Assembly: GCA_036253495.1 (NCBI GenBank)
Contig: GCA_036253495.1_4125.1
DNA from: a phage
Reading direction: 5' to 3' (one strand)
DNA length: 64,000 bases
The notes beneath the pieces were generated by a model. The model made no database searches, was not told the DNA's origin, and saw only the letters and a program-made list of their open reading frames with translations. The translations under genes and the position numbers were made by a program. Positions 15,261 to 49,107 of this stretch are shown one piece after another (positions within the stretch are counted from its first letter, which is position 1; every line of letters starts with the position of its first letter).

Positions 15261-15893
15261 ATGCTATATAATATTGGTATTATGGACGTACCTGGTGATG
15301 GTAACATAAAATCTCCTGATAATAAAATATATAAAACATGGTGTTCAATCTTTGTTAGATGCTATTCGCCAATATCACTAAAAAAACGCCCAACGTATGA
15401 ATTAACCGAAGTATGTGATGAATGGAAACTATATTCAAACTTCAAAAAATGGTATATAAGTAATTATATAGAAGGTTACTTTCTTGATAAAGATATTATT
15501 GATGGTACTTCTAATATTTACTCACCATATACTTGCTCGTTTGTTCCAAACATTATAAATTGTTGTATTTTGGATGGGAATTCAAAAAACTCTAATCTAC
15601 CAATTGGTGTTCATTATAGACCGAAAGGGAAAGATATGGTCAACGAATTTTCGAATCCATATCAAGCAAGACTCTGGAAATATAAAAAACGTGTATCACT
15701 CGGATGTTATCCTACACCATATGATGCACATAAAGCGTGGCAATTTGGTAAGAAAGAATACTTATTAGAATTGATTAACGACTATAGTGATAAAGTTACC
15801 CCTGAAGTTGTTGTCGGTTTACAACGTAGAATTGATATACTAACCGATGATATAAAAAAATGTAGAATTACAAATTCAATCAGTAAAATATAG
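15261..15893 (+). CDS. hypothetical protein, possible AP2-like DNA-binding / homing-endonuclease-like
   Basis: GVHYRPKGK...YQARLW...LGCYPTPYDAHKAW resembles the AP2 domain pattern; no HNH catalytic motif seen. Confidence 0.4.
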   Translation: MLYNIGIMDVPGDGNIKSPDNKIYKTWCSIFVRCYSPISLKKRPTYELTEVCDEWKLYSNFKKWYISNYIEGYFLDKDIIDGTSNIYSPYTCSFVPNIINCCILDGNSKNSNLPIGVHYRPKGKDMVNEFSNPYQARLWKYKKRVSLGCYPTPYDAHKAWQFGKKEYLLELINDYSDKVTPEVVVGLQRRIDILTDDIKKCRITNSISKI

Positions 15894-15898
15894 AGAGG

Positions 15899-16237
15899 TT
15901 GTATATGCTAAATCTAGTTATTCAAGGTAATGTTGATATTACTCCAGCAATCCATGACGCAATTCATCAAGAAGCAAACACTCTAAATAAATTTAGTGAT
16001 TCTTCAGTACTGAATATTGGTGTTCATGTGAAAAAAGAGCATAAGACACAGTACGCAGTAACTTTAACATCAGGTGGTAAGTCTGTTACTGCCGATGATG
16101 CAGATTTATACAAGGCGATTGTCGATTCATTCGAAAAAATGGAAACTGTATTCAGTAAAGACAAAAGCATTAAATTGCACCGCCGAAACCATCCAGACCG
16201 TCCAGTTGTAGTTGATGTAACTGACGAAGAAGAGTAA
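15899..16237 (+). CDS. hypothetical protein
   Basis: ORF followed by a terminator. Confidence 0.5.
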   Translation: MYMLNLVIQGNVDITPAIHDAIHQEANTLNKFSDSSVLNIGVHVKKEHKTQYAVTLTSGGKSVTADDADLYKAIVDSFEKMETVFSKDKSIKLHRRNHPDRPVVVDVTDEEE

Positions 16238-16246
16238 TATAACAAA

Positions 16247-16274
16247 GGGACAGATTAATTCTGTCCCTTTTCTT
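16247..16274 (+). terminator. rho-independent terminator
   Basis: gggacag-attaatt-ctgtccc hairpin followed by TTTTCTT. Confidence 0.6.
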
Positions 16275-16288
16275 ATGGAGTTTTAATT

Positions 16289-16699
16289 ATGAATTATGCT
16301 TGGATGGAAATTGTAAAATCTCTCGTATCAACACATGATGTTGATTTACCAGATAGTCTAGTATTTAATAGATGGTACTATCCATATCCAGAGGACCGTA
16401 GGGTTGGAATTGGATTTTTTATTAATGATAAATCTAATTTGATTGGATTAATTGAAGATCTGAAATCCAACGTAGTGTCGTTCTCAATTGAGTTTAATGA
16501 CGATCACATAAAATACTACACCAGTAAAATGGACGAAGACGATGTTATAATCCCTATGGATATAGATGAAGCTTCATTTTTTCAGTTATCATTGATTTAT
16601 GATCTATCTAACATTACTTATGATAATGTGAAAGACCTTTTTATATTGTACAATAAAATGTATAATTACTTTTTAAGACCTTTTTATATTGTACAATAA
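16289..16699 (+). CDS. hypothetical protein
   Basis: ORF; its 3' end runs into a 43-bp tandem duplication. Confidence 0.5.
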   Translation: MNYAWMEIVKSLVSTHDVDLPDSLVFNRWYYPYPEDRRVGIGFFINDKSNLIGLIEDLKSNVVSFSIEFNDDHIKYYTSKMDEDDVIIPMDIDEASFFQLSLIYDLSNITYDNVKDLFILYNKMYNYFLRPFYIVQ

Positions 16700-16718
16700 A
16701 ATGTATAATTACTTTTTA
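16633..16718. repeat. perfect 43-bp tandem duplication (2 copies)
   Basis: agacctttttatattgtacaataaaatgtataattacttttta at 16633-16675 is repeated exactly at 16676-16718. Confidence 0.9.
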
Positions 16719-16734
16719 TAACAGAGGTATAGTG

Positions 16735-16920
16735 ATGGAATATACAATAGGTGCAATAGTATGTATCGCAGCATTATTAGGTGGCATTGGTGTGATGATT
16801 TACTTTGATGCAGAACCCAGTACTGAAATGGGTACAACCCTGGAACTCAAACCTGGCATTAAGGTGAACGACTCTTACTGTTACGATCCACATAGTAATA
16901 AGTATGTGATTTGTTTATGA
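16735..16920 (+). CDS. small membrane protein
   Basis: ATG at 16735 after AGAGG; one hydrophobic TM-like segment. Confidence 0.4.
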   Translation: MEYTIGAIVCIAALLGGIGVMIYFDAEPSTEMGTTLELKPGIKVNDSYCYDPHSNKYVICL

Positions 16921-17327
16921 AAAAGTTTAATATTAAACCGATATTTGATGCTATCGAAATTAAATTGAAAGACCAACGAAAACCCGATGGTACTGGTTTA
17001 TTCTTTAGTTTAGATAGAACCTACGTTGAAACACATGTATCAAGTTTTGATAGAACTGGTAATCTTTTCATCCGTTCATATAACATGTTTTATAGTGAAG
17101 ATGTTTTTATGATAGATATCACTTTAGATGAAAGTATAGGTTTGATGTACATTGAAGATGTTCAATCAAACGATCAACGAAACGGCACACTTCCTATTGG
17201 TGCTACCGAGGAAGAGTTTATGCAATATCAGTTCATTGATGATACCTTTGGTATTGACTTTGTGACATATCAGAGTATAATGCGTGTATACGAACAGTAT
17301 GAGGATTACGTAATTGGACGTTACTAA
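16917..17327 (+). CDS. hypothetical protein, tandem paralog family B copy 1
   Basis: Shares the C-terminal QYxFIDDTFGID(F/Y) motif with the next ORF. Confidence 0.5.
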   Translation: MKKFNIKPIFDAIEIKLKDQRKPDGTGLFFSLDRTYVETHVSSFDRTGNLFIRSYNMFYSEDVFMIDITLDESIGLMYIEDVQSNDQRNGTLPIGATEEEFMQYQFIDDTFGIDFVTYQSIMRVYEQYEDYVIGRY

Positions 17328-17736
17328 AATACCCAAATTCAACGAAACGTTAAAGTACTTTTCTGAACAAGAGTTCAGTACTGAAAGACGTGGTTTAGTC
17401 ACATACAACCAATATCGCGTAATGTATACTAACCAGTTACAAGGAACAGTACGTATTAAAATCCGTAATGCATATGATGATGGTGATGAATTATTAATTA
17501 TACTAAGAAAAAGTAAGATAGAACTACAATACCATAGATTTGATACTTCCGATGAGTTTGCATGGAATGTGTTAGAAAAAAAAGCAGGTTCATTGCCTGT
17601 AGTTGATGATGGACCTGAAGTACTGGCCCAGTATATGTTCATTGATGACACATTTGGTATTGACTATTCTTCATTTCAGTATATACTATCTATACATAAA
17701 CAATATGAATCCCGCTTGCGTGACAGATTAATTTAA
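17314..17736 (+). CDS. hypothetical protein, tandem paralog family B copy 2
   Basis: Paralog of 16917..17327; probable TTG start after GAGGA. Confidence 0.45.
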   Translation: MDVTKIPKFNETLKYFSEQEFSTERRGLVTYNQYRVMYTNQLQGTVRIKIRNAYDDGDELLIILRKSKIELQYHRFDTSDEFAWNVLEKKAGSLPVVDDGPEVLAQYMFIDDTFGIDYSSFQYILSIHKQYESRLRDRLI

Positions 17737-17872
17737 TTGGAGGCTTTATGATTGCAATGTTAGAAGAAGATTGGGGTGTTTCTGAACAAGGAACCGACGA
17801 ATATCAAGTTCCAGAATACAAGCCAAAAGGCTTCTGGGAAAGTCTGCGTGATTGGTTGATGGGAGAATAAGA

Positions 17873-34717: not shown

Positions 34718-34745
34718 TTGACAGTACAGATTAACGTGATATAAT
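34718..34745 (+). promoter_or_regulatory. consensus sigma70 promoter with extended -10 (TTGACA-16-TGaTATAAT)
   Basis: ttgaca at 34718-34723 and gtgatataat ending at 34745. Confidence 0.55.
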
Positions 34746-43563: not shown

Positions 43564-46500
43564 TTAAGCAGTACGTTGTGCAATAAACATATCTACTACT
43601 GGGCTGTATCCATCATAAATCAACTGAATGATACTAACTGTATTTTGTGTTTTGTTAATCTCACCACCTACTACTGCATAAGTACCATCAGTGATAAGTT
43701 CACGTCCACCAGTTGCATCTTGTTGTACGTAGATATAGTAAGAACCAGCCTTACCACTTCCAATCAATCCGTTAATTGGACCTAGTGTAGTTGATGCTTG
43801 GTCTAGTGTAATATAGTACACATTAGACTCACCATCAGGTGACCATGTTCCTTCACTTGGAGCAGCAACAGATGCCTGTACTTTAGCAGCAGGTGTAACA
43901 GCATACTTTTTAGTAGTTACACTTTCAGTTACTAAATCAGCAATATCTGTATGTAGTGTGCCTTCAATAGTCACATCTTTAGCAAATGTTGCATTTTCAG
44001 CAAATGAAGATGTACCAGTAACTGTGATTGCATCAGCAGACGCAGAACCTAGTGTTACAGCACCTTTAAGGTTAGTAGCACCAGTAATTTCTGCACCACC
44101 CGCAACTACATTGAAGCCACCCGCAGTGATTTCGATACCACCAGTACTAACAGTTAGTTTCTTACCGATAGTAACAACATCAGATAGTGTAGTTGCACCA
44201 GTAACTGCTAGAGTAGTGTTAATCTTAGCACTTGCCATAGTTGCTAGGCCAGAAGTTGTAATAGTTGCAGTAGTTACTGCACCAGACGCACTAACGTTTG
44301 CACCAGACACATCACCAGTTGTAGTGATTGCACCATCACCAGCGTTGATTGTAGCACCATTAGTTGCAATACCACCTTTCAAAGTACTCAAACCTTCAGC
44401 AGTGATTGTTGAACCAACTGTTAGGGTTGTACCAGCAGCGATAAAGGTTGTAGAAGTTAGAGATTTAACTTCGACTGCACTTGCAGATTGGTCCAGTGTA
44501 CCAATAATCTTACCACTAACAGTAAAGTCGCCAGTAGTTACTGCGTTACCATTAACAGTTAGGCTGTTAGCTGTTGAACCTTGTGCACCGAATGTTGCAG
44601 CACGTGCGTGCATATCTTCATCAGTAGTAATATCCTCAACTGCGTGAATTGTGGTATTAGAAGTTAATGAGTTCAGGGAAATATCCTGACCAGCCAAATC
44701 TACTGAACCGTTAATATTACCAGCAACAAATAGGTTACTACCAATATAAGTATCACCAACAAATTGGATAGTTTCCGGTCTTGAACTAACTTTAGGACCG
44801 ATGATAATACCTTTCGCAGAAATATCAGCTTTAGGCATAGTCACAGTAGACGCATCAGAGATGTTAACAGATGCACCATTAACAACCAAAGCACCACCAA
44901 CAGTCAAACCAGTAGTTACCGCTGCACTACCAAATGTACCTTTACCAGTTGTGGTAATTGTAGTACCAGTAATGTCACCAGCAGCAGTGATTGCGGTATT
45001 TGCACTAACAGCCAAACCACCAGTTAGAGTGCTTAGACCAGTAACTTCTAGTGTTTCTCTGGATTTCAAGCTTTTCGCATCAACTGGAGTAGTAGATAGA
45101 TCCAATGTTCCAGGGTTTAGTGTTCCATTAATGGTAACATCACCAGAAACTGTTAGTGAACTGAGAGCAGCTTCACCAGCGGTTAGTTTTCCAGTTAGAT
45201 TTGTAGTACCAGTAACAGCCAAAGCACCACCAGCACTTAGAGCACCAGTAACTTCCGCACTACTTAATGTAGCTTTACCACTTGTTGAAAGAGTAGTAGT
45301 GTTAGTACCACCATTTAGAGTTGAAACACCAGTAACAGTTAGTGTAGTACCAGCAGTTACAGAACCGAGTGCAGTTAAGTTAGCACTTGCATCAACACCT
45401 TCAACGTTTAGAACAGCAGAACCTAAGTTTAGGCTACCTTCAGGTGTAAATGCACCTTTAACAGTTAGGTCACCAGTAACAACTGCATCACCTGAAACAT
45501 CAACACTTGCTAGTGTTGCTTTACCAGAAGTTTGAAGAGTTGCGGATTGAACTTCACCAGTAGTTTTGATTAATGCAGAACCTGCATCAACACCACCAGT
45601 TAGAGTACTTAGTCCAGTAACGCCTAATGTTTCACCAATTGTCAAATAACCACCAACAGTTGCATCATTATCAACAGCTACACCAACACCAGTAGCACTT
45701 ACTTGGATTGATTTAGAAGTAATTTTACCACCAACATCAACAGTACCATCAAAAGTTGCAGCACCTACAGTATGTAGGGTTGAACTTAGTGTAGTTGCAC
45801 CAGAAATTGTTGGAGCACCAGTAATTGTACCAGTGGTTAGAATTAAGTCAGTACCAACTGTAGTACTTGTAGTACTTGCTAATGAGTTAGTTTCCAAATC
45901 AGCATTTGTGATAGTCAAGTTACCATCGATAGTAACGTCATTATCAACTTGTAGTGATTTAACAGTCAAATCAGTTGCACTAAAATCAACGGAAGTTGCA
46001 GTGAAAGCACCTTCAACGTGCAAATCACCAGTAACATCTGTTGGTTTAGCTAGTGTTATTTTATCTCCAGCACTTGTGTATGAACCAGCACTTACTGAAC
46101 CATCAACCACTGCCGCAGCAGCAACTTTCAAGTTTCCAGAAGCAACAGTCAAGCCACCTTTAGCAGTAATACCACCGACGTTTACAGTTACTGCGTTACC
46201 AAATGTTGAAGCACCAGTAACTTCAAGTGCACCAGTAACGGTCGCTTTACCACCGACTGTTGCATCACCAGTAACATTCAATTTACCAGCGGTTGCTTCA
46301 GTACTTGTTAGTTTTGGTAGAATACTTGGTTCAGTATTTTCAGTAACAGTAATAACACCAGAAGAAGTTAGTGATTTAACAGTTAGATCTGCCGCAGCAG
46401 CATTAATTGCACCATCAACAGTTAAGCTTCCACCAATGGTTGCACCTTCAGTTGTTGTTAATGATTTAGAACTGATATCAACTGGGCTTAAATCTAATCC

Positions 46501-49107
46501 ACCTTCAGGTGTAAATGTACCTTTAACAGTTAGGTCACCATGTACAACTGTATCATTTTCTAAATTAATACCATCGGTATTAACAATAGAAGGAGTAGTT
46601 ACAGAAACAGCAGAAACAGCAGCCAATGTACTTTCACCAGTAACATTTAATGTAGAAATGTTTGCTGTAGTTACTGTTGCTGTACCAGTTGTACTGTTAG
46701 TTGTAGTAATATCAGTACTTTGTAATTTTGGTAGAATGTTAGTTCCAGTAGCATCATTACTAATCACAGGACCAGCACTAGTTAAAGATTTAACACTTAC
46801 ATCTGCTGCACTTAAATCTACAGTACCATCAACAGTTAGGTTTCCACCTACATGTGCACTTTCAGATACATCAAGTGTTTTAACAGTTACATCAGCCGCA
46901 CTTAGGTCAATAACACCAGCCGTTAAAGTTCCAGTAACATTCAAATCACCACCAACTGATGCATTATGATCTACACTTAGACCAGTTCCGGTTCCGGTAA
47001 TTTGTGCGGAAGCTGCGGTCACTTTAGTAGTTGCTGTGATATTTGGGGCAGTGATAGTACCGTCAGATTCAATTGAACCAGTTTCTAATGCATCAGAACC
47101 AACACCAGTAACTTTACCAGTAACTTCAACTTTCAAGCCACTAAAGAGTGCGTTTCCACCAACACTTAGATTAGTCCCCACTGCAACTTCTTCAGTTGTG
47201 GTTACAGAATTAGGTAGAATGTCTAGACCATCAACGTTTGCTTTAATTGCAGCACCAGATAGTGTACCAGTAACGTTCAAATCTTTAACAGTGGTTGTTT
47301 GACCAACAACTTCAAATAAACCATCAACTACCGTGTTACCAACCAATGTGGTAGTACCGTCAACTGTTAGGTTTCCAGATGCAGTTACGTCAACACCTTT
47401 AACATTACCAGATGCAGTTACATCTTTAGGAGTAATGTCTTGACCAGCTAGTGTAATACCAGTTGTAGTTCCAGTAACAGTCAAATCAGTTATAGTTGTG
47501 CCTTTTAGAACGGAATCCCCATCAACTGTTAGTGTACCAGAAGCATCTAGATTAACACCACTAATATTACCAGAAGCAGTTACATCTTTAGGTGTAATAT
47601 CTTGACCAGAAATGTCAGGAACAAAACCAGTAACTGTACCAGTGAAATTAACGTCTTTGAATTGAGCCTTACCATCCACATCTAGAGTTAATGTATTTGG
47701 ATCTTGTACCGCATTACCAGTTATTTTCAAATAATCAAATAGGTTCAAACCTTTTGCTGTAATACCGTAGGTTGCTGCTGATACATCACCAAATGTAGCA
47801 GTTTTCAGTACTGTTAGATTTGCTGGAGTCATTAACTCGGACTGTACTTCGTTTTGTAGAATTACAGTTGGGCGTAAACCAGGAGCAGTATATGTAAAGT
47901 TAACTTTAGCATTCGTGTCTGCTACGTTTCCACCTAAAGTGACAGATTTTAAATTAGCATTCGCAGTTGAACCAACAATATTAGATTCTAGGTTTAATGC
48001 ACCTTTTAGTGTAGTTAGTTTTTCAACAACTAAATTATCCGCAGTAATATCACTTAGTACAAAGTTACCTGATAGTGTTCCAGTAATATCCAAATCACCA
48101 ACAGTAGTTTTACCAGTAATATTAGTAGTTCCATCAACTTGTAGGTCAGTTAATTGTGTTTTACCTTTAGTTACACGTAGAATTGGTGTGGTTGGATCTT
48201 GTATTGAGTTACCAGAAAGTGTTAGGTAATCAAATAGGTTCAAACCTTTTGCGGTAATACCATTGGTTGCTGCTGATACATCACCAAATGTAGCAGTTTT
48301 AAGTACTGTTAGATTTGCTGGAGTCATTAGCTCGGACTGTACTTCGTTTTGCAGAATTACAGTTGGGCGTAATCCTGGAGCAGTGTATGCAAAGCCTAGG
48401 CGTGCAGTCGAGTCCGCTGCATTAGAACCCAAAGATACAGCTTTTAGGTTTGCTACAGTATTAGTACCAATGATGTTTGATTCTAGGGTTACAGCACCTT
48501 TTAATGTAGATAGTTTTTCAACAACTAAATTATCGGTATTAACATCCCCTAATGTGAAATCACCATCTAATTTACCAGTTACAGTTAGATTCTCAACGGT
48601 TGCACCAGTTGCAGTAATATCAGTTGCTGATACAGTTGCAATGGTTGCTTCATTAGCAGTTAATTTATCAAAGCTTGCAGTGGTTGCTGCCGCAGCAGTG
48701 AGGTTACCATTTAATGTTGTTGTACCATTAACTTCTAATGCAGAAGTGGTGGTATCTTGAAAAATTGCTTTTCCTGATGTTTGTGTAATATCTTTGGCAA
48801 AAGTAGAAGTGCCATTAAAAGTAGCATTGGAATTAATAGTTGCTGTATCGGAACCAGCAGTAGTATTACCAATAACTGTATTGCCAAGTACATCCATTCC
48901 ACCCTTAAGTGACGCTTTGCCTGTAACATCGAGTGTTGTGTTGATTGTTGCTTGATCTACTGTAATTGCAGTGAAGGTAGCATCAGCGAAACTAACGGTC
49001 CCCTTAATGGTTACGTTTTTATCGAAGACCGCATTACCTTTAACTGATAATTCTTTACCAACATTAGTATTACCAGTTACTGCTAGATCTGTTTTTATCG
49101 AGTACAT
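43564..49107 (-). CDS. giant tail fibre protein (1847 aa, repetitive)
   Basis: Very long Thr/Gly/Ala/Val/Ser-rich ORF with short beta-repeat motifs and an internal duplicated domain. Confidence 0.7.
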   Translation of the reverse strand: MYSIKTDLAVTGNTNVGKELSVKGNAVFDKNVTIKGTVSFADATFTAITVDQATINTTLDVTGKASLKGGMDVLGNTVIGNTTAGSDTATINSNATFNGTSTFAKDITQTSGKAIFQDTTTSALEVNGTTTLNGNLTAAAATTASFDKLTANEATIATVSATDITATGATVENLTVTGKLDGDFTLGDVNTDNLVVEKLSTLKGAVTLESNIIGTNTVANLKAVSLGSNAADSTARLGFAYTAPGLRPTVILQNEVQSELMTPANLTVLKTATFGDVSAATNGITAKGLNLFDYLTLSGNSIQDPTTPILRVTKGKTQLTDLQVDGTTNITGKTTVGDLDITGTLSGNFVLSDITADNLVVEKLTTLKGALNLESNIVGSTANANLKSVTLGGNVADTNAKVNFTYTAPGLRPTVILQNEVQSELMTPANLTVLKTATFGDVSAATYGITAKGLNLFDYLKITGNAVQDPNTLTLDVDGKAQFKDVNFTGTVTGFVPDISGQDITPKDVTASGNISGVNLDASGTLTVDGDSVLKGTTITDLTVTGTTTGITLAGQDITPKDVTASGNVKGVDVTASGNLTVDGTTTLVGNTVVDGLFEVVGQTTTVKDLNVTGTLSGAAIKANVDGLDILPNSVTTTEEVAVGTNLSVGGNALFSGLKVEVTGKVTGVGSDALETGSIESDGTITAPNITATTKVTAASAQITGTGTGLSVDHNASVGGDLNVTGTLTAGVIDLSAADVTVKTLDVSESAHVGGNLTVDGTVDLSAADVSVKSLTSAGPVISNDATGTNILPKLQSTDITTTNSTTGTATVTTANISTLNVTGESTLAAVSAVSVTTPSIVNTDGINLENDTVVHGDLTVKGTFTPEGGLDLSPVDISSKSLTTTEGATIGGSLTVDGAINAAAADLTVKSLTSSGVITVTENTEPSILPKLTSTEATAGKLNVTGDATVGGKATVTGALEVTGASTFGNAVTVNVGGITAKGGLTVASGNLKVAAAAVVDGSVSAGSYTSAGDKITLAKPTDVTGDLHVEGAFTATSVDFSATDLTVKSLQVDNDVTIDGNLTITNADLETNSLASTTSTTVGTDLILTTGTITGAPTISGATTLSSTLHTVGAATFDGTVDVGGKITSKSIQVSATGVGVAVDNDATVGGYLTIGETLGVTGLSTLTGGVDAGSALIKTTGEVQSATLQTSGKATLASVDVSGDAVVTGDLTVKGAFTPEGSLNLGSAVLNVEGVDASANLTALGSVTAGTTLTVTGVSTLNGGTNTTTLSTSGKATLSSAEVTGALSAGGALAVTGTTNLTGKLTAGEAALSSLTVSGDVTINGTLNPGTLDLSTTPVDAKSLKSRETLEVTGLSTLTGGLAVSANTAITAAGDITGTTITTTGKGTFGSAAVTTGLTVGGALVVNGASVNISDASTVTMPKADISAKGIIIGPKVSSRPETIQFVGDTYIGSNLFVAGNINGSVDLAGQDISLNSLTSNTTIHAVEDITTDEDMHARAATFGAQGSTANSLTVNGNAVTTGDFTVSGKIIGTLDQSASAVEVKSLTSTTFIAAGTTLTVGSTITAEGLSTLKGGIATNGATINAGDGAITTTGDVSGANVSASGAVTTATITTSGLATMASAKINTTLAVTGATTLSDVVTIGKKLTVSTGGIEITAGGFNVVAGGAEITGATNLKGAVTLGSASADAITVTGTSSFAENATFAKDVTIEGTLHTDIADLVTESVTTKKYAVTPAAKVQASVAAPSEGTWSPDGESNVYYITLDQASTTLGPINGLIGSGKAGSYYIYVQQDATGGRELITDGTYAVVGGEINKTQNTVSIIQLIYDGYSPVVDMFIAQRTA
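47699..48690. repeat. internal tandem duplication (~495-bp unit) within the giant fibre gene
   Basis: Sequence from 47699 (ggatcttgtacc...) recurs from 48194 (ggatcttgtattg...) with high identity over more than 200 bp, then diverges. Confidence 0.7.

What the first reader, a model, noticed from the sequence alone, without database searches (positions are those of the whole stretch)
16633..16718. Perfect 43-bp tandem duplication spanning a gene's 3' end
An exact direct repeat of 43 bp (16633-16675 and 16676-16718) overlaps the stop of ORF 16289..16699 and the region upstream of the next gene. Perfect identity implies a recent duplication or an assembly artefact. The unit contains the palindrome TTGTACAA and a TATAAT-like hexamer.
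Basis: seen in the sequence. Interest (0 to 1): 0.35.

Follow-up and report, generated by a model that had tools for sequence, protein, structure and literature searches.

The report
Shared 43-bp tandem duplication allele
The perfect 43-bp tandem repeat is real and not an assembly error: it is an ordinary small duplication at the end of a gene of unknown function, which a minority of 121Q-like jumbo coliphages share and pass between lineages by recombination.

Summary
A 43-nt unit occurs twice head to tail (16632-16674 and 16675-16717, 100% identical). The window is a jumbo E. coli phage of the genus Asteriusvirus (121Q/PBECO4 group).

The repeat is not an assembly artefact. The exact copy-copy junction is in 5 independent GenBank phages (A4, BF17, vB_Ec-M-J, WPEC5, EC.P1) and in junction-spanning contigs of at least 7 public runs, including gut, manure and wastewater metagenomes. 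The other 30 records with the gene have one copy, which is the ancestral state.

The duplication arose once. It is perfectly linked to one upstream haplotype, and a block of about 150 nt is 100% identical among two-copy phages whose flanks are only 80-85% identical. Discordant flanking trees and three different downstream contexts show the block moves by short-patch recombination.

Its demonstrable effects are small. The gp534-like ORF reads into copy 2 out of frame and gains 7 residues (RPFYIVQ). Its stop moves from 13 to 35 nt before the next gene, and a TATAAT hexamer is doubled.

A promoter role is unsupported: there is no -35, the TG is out of register, and TATAAT is common here. This is an ordinary structural variant of low interest.

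The parts
16632..16674 (+). Copy 1 of the 43-nt unit AAGACCTTTTTATATTGTACAATAAAATGTATAATTACTTTTT. It encodes the ancestral C-terminus (K)DLFILYNKMYNYF(L) of the gp534-like protein.
16675..16717 (+). Copy 2 of the unit, 100% identical to copy 1. Base 16718 (A) continues the periodicity by one base, so the junction has only 1 nt of microhomology.
16289..16699 (+). gp534-like ORF (136 aa, phrog_36582, unknown function, found only in Asteriusvirus). The PHROG profile and all one-copy homologues end at residue 129 (...NYFL).
16676..16699 (+). New C-terminal tail RPFYIVQ plus a TAA stop. It arises because 43 is not a multiple of 3, so copy 2 is read in a shifted frame.
   Evidence: reading of the sequence
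16719..16721 (+). TAA that corresponds to the ancestral stop codon (TTT TTA TAA in one-copy phages). It is no longer used, and it lies 13 nt before the next gene's ATG.
16724..16727 (+). GAGG Shine-Dalgarno sequence of the downstream gene.
   Evidence: annotated as an RBS in phage UE-S1
16735..16920 (+). Downstream gene (61 aa, phrog_4189, hydrophobic N-terminus, 121Q gp535-like).
16661..16666 (+). TATAAT hexamer in copy 1. It is the Tyr-Asn codons of the ORF.
16704..16709 (+). TATAAT hexamer in copy 2. It has no usable -35 (TTTTTA at a 17-nt spacing, 3 of 6 matches). The TG sits directly against the hexamer, so it is out of register for an extended -10.
16641..16658 (.). 18-nt near-palindrome TTATATTGTACAATAAAA (core TTGTACAA). 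It recurs at 16684-16701.
   Evidence: I1, I5, I6
16568..16718 (.). Haplotype block of about 150 nt, the last ~64 nt before the array plus the array. It is 100% identical (one substitution in vB_Ec-M-J) among all two-copy phages, inside flanks that are 80-85% identical.

Best explanation
This is a genuine 43-bp tandem duplication of the last 14 1/3 codons of an Asteriusvirus-specific gene of unknown function (121Q gp534 family). It arose once in a one-copy ancestor. Because the junction has only 1 nt of microhomology, the inferred cause is a replication template switch (slippage) or illegitimate end-joining. It now circulates as an allele on a haplotype block of about 150 nt. Short-patch homologous recombination in co-infections moves this block between diverged Asteriusvirus lineages, and some crossovers fall inside the unit itself. 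Three consequences are shown. First, the ORF runs into copy 2 in a shifted frame and ends 7 residues later (RPFYIVQ*). Second, the distance from its stop to the ATG of the next gene grows from 13 to 35 nt. Third, a TATAAT hexamer and a TTGTACAA near-palindrome are doubled. It is inferred, not shown, that the allele is neutral or nearly so, and that the unit is conserved mainly because it is coding sequence next to the downstream gene's translation start.
For: The repeat is exact. The window is an Asteriusvirus; its nearest record is phage A4, at 96.5% identity. The exact junction is in A4, BF17, vB_Ec-M-J, WPEC5 and EC.P1. Junction-spanning unitigs are in runs X1, X3, X4, X49, X51, X53 and X63, and run X2 has the one-copy form. 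In X1 the unit-internal unitig has about 2.2x the flank depth and the junction unitig about 1.1x, as expected for exactly two copies. One copy is ancestral: 30 of 35 records, all clades including the most divergent, and the PHROG profile ends at residue 129. There was a single origin. The boundaries are identical everywhere. The 71 nt upstream are at least 98.6% identical only in the five two-copy records and at most 93% in all 30 one-copy records. The allele spreads by recombination. Window versus BF17, EcMJ and WPEC5 is 100% identical only over about 16575-16718, within flanks of 80-85% identity. EC.P1 (two copies) is identical to fEgEco12 (one copy) in the lysozyme gene and nearly so in the CCA gene. 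The array sits in front of three different downstream haplotypes. Two of these also occur with one copy, so copy number and presence of the downstream cassette are found in all four combinations. In WPEC5 and EC.P1, copy 2 carries the cassette-linked T-to-A change at unit position 42, which places a crossover inside the unit. T4-type recombination needs less than 50 bp of homology (Singer et al. 1982, as cited in PMC2839356).
Against: The reads of this very assembly were not available; the best run held only 65% of the sampled words. Support therefore comes from relatives, not from the window's own data. Neutrality is assumed, not measured. Carriage of one block by several lineages could instead reflect selection. 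The last 23 nt of the unit are invariant even in the JNE01/Turkey5 clade, where the protein is only about 70% identical, and all 5 synonymous sites there are unchanged. That hints at a constraint at the nucleotide level that this explanation leaves unspecified. Depths in X3 (junction 60, flanks 272-440) do not fit a clean two-copy population.
Confidence: 0.8

Rival explanations
1. Tandem promoter duplication. The unit would carry a host sigma-70 promoter (-10 TATAAT) for the downstream operon: the small membrane protein, the gp536/537 paralogues and the CCA-adding enzyme. The two-copy allele would double it and would be favoured by selection.
For: There is an exact TATAAT 26 nt before the downstream ATG, directly after a gene whose upstream neighbour ends in a terminator hairpin. 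The 3' 23 nt of the unit, including that hexamer, are invariant across the genus, synonymous sites included. The block is found in several lineages.
Against: There is no -35 (TTTTTA, 3 of 6), and the TG is directly against the hexamer, so this is not an extended -10. The consensus scan does not list the site, and it finds no more sites in the region than in shuffles (18 against 19.0). TATAAT occurs 69 times on the + strand of the window, and here it is the Tyr-Asn codons. Promoter-like sites in this phage that look genuine are 12 of 12 matches with TG, for example at 34718 and 34811. TH47 has TACAAT at this position. No transcriptome of any Asteriusvirus infection could be found.
Confidence: 0.15
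2. Assembly or sequencing artefact in this genome. The true genome would have one copy.
For: The window's own reads could not be examined.
Against: Assemblers collapse short repeats rather than create them, and 86 nt lies within one Illumina read. The same junction is in five independent GenBank genomes and in at least seven runs. The window also carries the upstream haplotype that is linked to two copies in every other case.
Confidence: 0.02
3. Recurrent duplication at a hotspot. The same 43 bp would have duplicated independently in several lineages.
For: Two-copy phages are scattered in the flanking gene trees.
Against: The boundaries are identical even though the microhomology is only 1 nt. 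Linkage to one upstream haplotype is perfect (5 of 5 against 0 of 30). The 100% identity extends about 60 nt beyond the repeat.
Confidence: 0.03
4. Doubled protein-binding site. The 18-nt near-palindrome would act as an operator or iteron for a phage DNA-binding protein, or the unit would be an RNA structural element.
For: The near-palindrome TTATATTGTACAATAAAA is present in each copy.
Against: The motif occurs nowhere else in the whole genomes of A4, BF17 and 121Q. The RNA folds are no better than shuffles (z = -0.9, -0.25 and -1.8). The palindromic half is the part of the unit that varies in JNE01 and Turkey5.
Confidence: 0.03

Closest known systems
Small spontaneous tandem duplications in T4-type phages and bacteria, made by replication slippage, template switching or illegitimate recombination (from established knowledge, not tested here)
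   Same: It is a head-to-tail copy of a few tens of bases with almost no junction homology. It shifts the frame of the gene it lies in, and copy number is polymorphic between close relatives.
   Different: Here the allele is not a laboratory mutant. It circulates in nature and is seen in six isolates from Ireland, Poland, Thailand, China and elsewhere, and in metagenomes. It has been moved between lineages.
PeSL (promoter-early stem-loop) cassettes of T4-type phages (Arbiol et al. 2010, PMC2839356; Comeau et al. 2014, PMC4122927)
   Same: It is a short conserved sequence at a gene boundary that coincides with insertion/deletion and mosaic breakpoints. A two-gene cassette is inserted exactly at the unit's 3' end in at least 7 of the relatives read here, and crossovers fall inside the unit.
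   Different: It has no consensus promoter and no GC-rich stem-loop. It is unique in the genome rather than dispersed, and it lies inside coding sequence. It is not a PeSL.
Tandem sigma-70 promoters, such as the pair of 12/12 consensus promoters at 34718 and 34811 in this same window
   Same: There are two identical -10 hexamers 43 nt apart in front of an operon.
   Different: The sites at 34718 and 34811 have a perfect -35, a 16-nt spacer and a TG. The unit has none of these.

Membership tests
Tandem duplication (structural variant) | Two adjacent head-to-tail copies well beyond chance | tested here: met
   43 nt x 2.0 copies at 100% identity. The core motif has 0 expected matches in shuffles.
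Tandem duplication (structural variant) | Relatives carry the unduplicated state at the same site | tested here: met
   30 of 35 records have one copy at the homologous position.
Tandem duplication (structural variant) | Present in the DNA itself and not produced by assembly | tested here: met
   This was shown for relatives only. The junction is in 5 GenBank genomes and 7 runs. The window's own reads are not available.
PeSL cassette | Near-consensus sigma-70 early promoter | tested here: not met
   The -35 matches 3 of 6, and the site is not listed by the scan.
PeSL cassette | GC-rich stem-loop after the promoter | tested here: not met
   Only weak AU pairing is predicted, with z-scores from -0.25 to -1.8.
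PeSL cassette | Many dispersed copies per genome | tested here: not met
   The motif occurs only at this locus in the whole genomes of A4, BF17 and 121Q.
PeSL cassette | Coincides with indel or mosaic boundaries | tested here: met
   The cassette insertion and the haplotype switches lie at the unit's 3' edge.
Sigma-70 promoter | -10 hexamer close to TATAAT | tested here: met
   Exact TATAAT at 16661 and 16704, but TATAAT occurs 69 times on the + strand.
Sigma-70 promoter | -35 hexamer at 16-18 nt, or TGn extended -10 | tested here: not met
Sigma-70 promoter | Transcripts start 6-8 nt downstream | not testable with these tools
   No RNA run of an Asteriusvirus infection was found.

The most novel reading that the evidence does not exclude
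The duplication-bearing block of about 150 nt would have spread through diverged Asteriusvirus lineages because it is advantageous. It could double a weak promoter embedded in the coding sequence. It could also uncouple translation of the small membrane protein gene from gp534, since the stop moves from 13 to 35 nt upstream. On this reading, the conserved 3' end of gp534 would be a single-locus recombination joint where modules downstream are swapped.
Probability: 0.12. Interest if true: 0.35.

Novelty: new member of a known kind. Interest (0 to 1): 0.12.

Why it matters
It matters little on its own. It shows that this assembly is correct at the site, so the 136-aa ORF with its odd tail should not be 'corrected'. 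It also gives a convenient natural marker: a 43-bp size difference linked to a defined haplotype. That marker could be used to follow short-patch recombination among 121Q-like jumbo phages. The locus is a small, clean example of how mosaic joints in these genomes sit at conserved gene ends.

Tried and rejected
- **Assembly artefact:** rejected on the evidence.
- **Dispersed repeat or PeSL-like element:** rejected, because the unit is unique in three whole genomes.
- **RNA structure:** the folds of the two-copy region, the one-copy region and the single unit are not better than shuffles.
- **Divergent promoter class of RaK2-like phages:** this class has a TGAAACG -35 (PMC5259590). TGAAAGA at 16629 is wrongly spaced from any -10, and no such sites were found in the window.
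- **T4-like late motif (TATAAATA/ATAAATA):** not present in the unit.
- **Link to a homing endonuclease:** the HNH-family gene at 15261-15893 is present in the window and in JNE01 (one copy) and absent from the other two-copy phages, so it does not correlate. The 123-aa and 41-aa cassette proteins give no nuclease hit.
- **Transcript evidence:** no RNA-seq of an Asteriusvirus infection was found.
- **Whole-genome file for the window:** not held.
- **Promoter annotation in the G17 record:** the stretch read holds only terminators.
- **Paralogy of gp534 with gp536/537:** only marginal (BLASTP E = 0.04; shared weak phrog_17453 hits).

Full report
**What is there**

The sequence at 16632-16718 is a perfect head-to-tail repeat. 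Its 43-nt unit is AAGACCTTTTTATATTGTACAATAAAATGTATAATTACTTTTT (TRF: period 43, 2.0 copies, 100% matches; the repeat finder D2).

A 25-nt core of the unit matches only these two places in the window with up to 3 mismatches. None is expected in shuffles. TTGTACAA and an exact TATAAT are in each copy.

ORF 16289..16699 ends inside copy 2. The next gene starts at ATG 16735, behind a GAGG at 16724-16727.

**Where the window comes from**

Megablast places the window in the genus Asteriusvirus, the 121Q/PBECO4 group of jumbo coliphages of about 350 kb. The closest record is phage A4, at 96.5% identity over this stretch.

The local gene order is:
- lysozyme;
- an HNH-family ORF that most relatives lack;
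- an HPF/RaiA-like protein;
- a terminator hairpin;
- a gp534-like ORFan (phrog_36582);
- a 61-aa hydrophobic protein (gp535-like, phrog_4189);
- two paralogous proteins of about 138 aa (phrog_20693);
- a 40-aa ORF;
- the CCA-adding enzyme.

**Not an artefact**

A 51-nt query across the copy-copy junction finds exact matches in five independently sequenced phages: A4, BF17, vB_Ec-M-J, WPEC5 and EC.P1.

Logan contigs of public runs break at the repeat exactly as a de Bruijn graph should for a two-copy array. There is a unit-internal unitig and a 59-73-nt unitig that crosses the junction. These are seen in X1, X3 and X4 and in X49 (bovine gut), X51, X53 (wastewater) and X63 (pig gut).

In X1 the internal unitig has about 2.2x the flank depth and the junction unitig about 1.1x, as expected for exactly two copies. 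X2 carries the one-copy form, seen as a joint that skips 43 nt.

The reads of the window's own assembly were not available; the best run held 65% of the sampled words. That last step therefore rests on relatives and on the fact that assemblers do not invent 86-nt repeats.

**Polarity and origin**

The gene occurs in 35 phage records, all Asteriusvirus. In 30 of them the protein match ends at residue 129 (...NYFL) and the DNA has one unit. This includes the most divergent clade, JNE01/Turkey5. The PHROG profile also ends there. One copy is therefore ancestral.

The duplication has the same boundaries everywhere, with only 1 nt of junction microhomology.

It is also perfectly linked to one haplotype of the preceding sequence. 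The 71 nt at 16570-16640 are 98.6-100% identical in the five two-copy records and at most 93% identical in all 30 one-copy records (variable-site table).

I conclude that there was a single origin. No one-copy revertant on the two-copy haplotype is seen in the collection.

**Spread by recombination**

A sliding comparison shows where the window is 100% identical to BF17, EcMJ and WPEC5. That holds only from about 16575 to the end of the array, inside flanks that are 80-85% identical.

Flanking gene trees are discordant with copy number. EC.P1 (two copies) is identical to fEgEco12 (one copy) in the lysozyme gene and nearly so in the CCA gene. The window and A4 form a separate deep branch.

Downstream of the array there are three different contexts:
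- the window/A4 allele of gp535;
- the allele that BF17 and EcMJ share with the one-copy phage TH47 (UE-S1's is close to it);
- in WPEC5 and EC.P1, a two-gene cassette (123 aa + 41 aa) that is also found behind a single unit in Ecwhy_1, fEgEco12, CMSTMSU, JNE01 and Turkey5.

Copy number and cassette presence thus occur in all four combinations, although the cassette begins within 3 nt of the unit. In WPEC5 and EC.P1, copy 2 carries the cassette-linked T-to-A change at unit position 42 while copy 1 does not. At least one crossover therefore lay inside the unit.

Even the window and A4 differ mainly in a patch at 16455-16574 and in four bases just after the array.

T4-type recombination works on patches of less than 50 bp (Singer et al. 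1982, as cited in PMC2839356). That makes this behaviour unsurprising.

**What the duplication changes**

43 is 3 x 14 + 1, so the ORF reads copy 2 in a shifted frame. Instead of ending ...NYFL-TAA it continues RPFYIVQ-TAA, with the stop at 16697-16699. The ancestral stop equivalent (16719-16721) lies 13 nt before the gp535 ATG, and the new stop lies 35 nt before it. The TATAAT and the near-palindrome are doubled. These are facts of the sequence. Whether any of them matters is not known.

**Is the unit a promoter?**

I rate this at about 15%.

In favour:
- It has an exact -10 hexamer in a sensible place.
- The 3' 23 nt of the unit are invariant across the genus, including five synonymous sites.

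Against:
- The best -35 is TTTTTA (3 of 6).
- The TG abuts the hexamer rather than being one base away.
- The consensus scan neither lists the site nor finds more sites than in shuffles.
- TATAAT occurs 69 times on the + strand, and here it is the Tyr-Asn codons.
- The convincing promoter-like sites of this phage are 12 of 12 matches with TG, at 34718 and 34811. This is in line with earlier notes on this genome.
- TH47 has TACAAT at this position.
- The divergent -35 (TGAAACG) and the late ATAAATA motif described for RaK2-like phages (PMC5259590) do not fit either.

No RNA data for any Asteriusvirus infection could be found.

**Other readings**

The unit is not a dispersed element. It occurs only at this locus in the whole genomes of A4, BF17 and 121Q. 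RNA folds of the one-copy and two-copy regions are not better than shuffles. It therefore fails three of four PeSL criteria, although it behaves like a PeSL in marking a mosaic and indel joint.

**Verdict**

This is a real, single-origin tandem duplication allele of a common kind, and it is naturally circulating. It is correctly assembled, has small and probably neutral consequences, and is of low interest. Its most useful aspect is as a marker of short-patch recombination among jumbo coliphages.

Noticed in passing
window 15261-15893 (+): A 210-aa ORF of the HNH-endonuclease family (phrog_953, E = 6e-59, matching only the C-terminal half of the profile) sits between the lysozyme and HPF genes. 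Among the relatives read, only JNE01 has an ORF of the same size at this position (not compared). A4, BF17, 121Q, PBECO4, G17 and others lack it. It is probably a free-standing homing-endonuclease insertion.
   Followed up: partly
L006 (WPEC5) 2194-2690; also EC.P1, Ecwhy_1, fEgEco12, CMSTMSU, JNE01, Turkey5: A two-gene cassette (123 aa with no family hit, plus 41 aa of phrog_34272) is inserted exactly at the 3' edge of the unit. By eye, the 41-aa protein (...FDWLMGE) looks like a paralogue of the window's 40-aa ORF 17748-17870 (...RDWLMGE). The cassette may therefore be a displaced copy of the gp537+gp538 module.
   Followed up: partly
window 16455-16574: The window and phage A4 are about 100% identical over most of 15935-17600 but only 85-87% identical in this 120-nt patch inside the gp534-like gene. 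Four further differences lie in the 16 nt after the array. This is fine-scale mosaicism on both sides of the repeat.
   Followed up: partly
window 17254-17281 and 17660-17687 (+): Strong promoter-like matches (TTGACT-16-TATAAT, 11 of 12; TTGACT-16-TATACT, 10 of 12) lie inside the conserved C-terminal coding motif (FGID...) of the two paralogous ~138-aa genes. It is unclear whether they are functional internal promoters or a by-product of the codons.
   Followed up: no
window 16212-16276 (+): The terminator hairpin after the HPF gene (GGGACAGATTAATTCTGTCCC followed by a T-run) is preceded by a weak promoter-like TTGATG-17-TAATAT and followed at once by the SD of the gp534-like gene. This arrangement resembles a PeSL.
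   Followed up: no
run X3 laid on window 16300-17100: The junction unitig (60) and the unit-internal unitig (116) have much lower depth than the flanking contigs (272 and 440). In X1, X49, X51 and X63 the ratios are near those expected for two copies. The cause could be AT bias or a mixed population.
   Followed up: no
window 47732-48709 (-): A 495-nt period tandem repeat (2.0 copies, 74% identity) lies inside the 1847-aa ORF at 43564-49107. It is an internal domain duplication of a very large protein.
   Followed up: no
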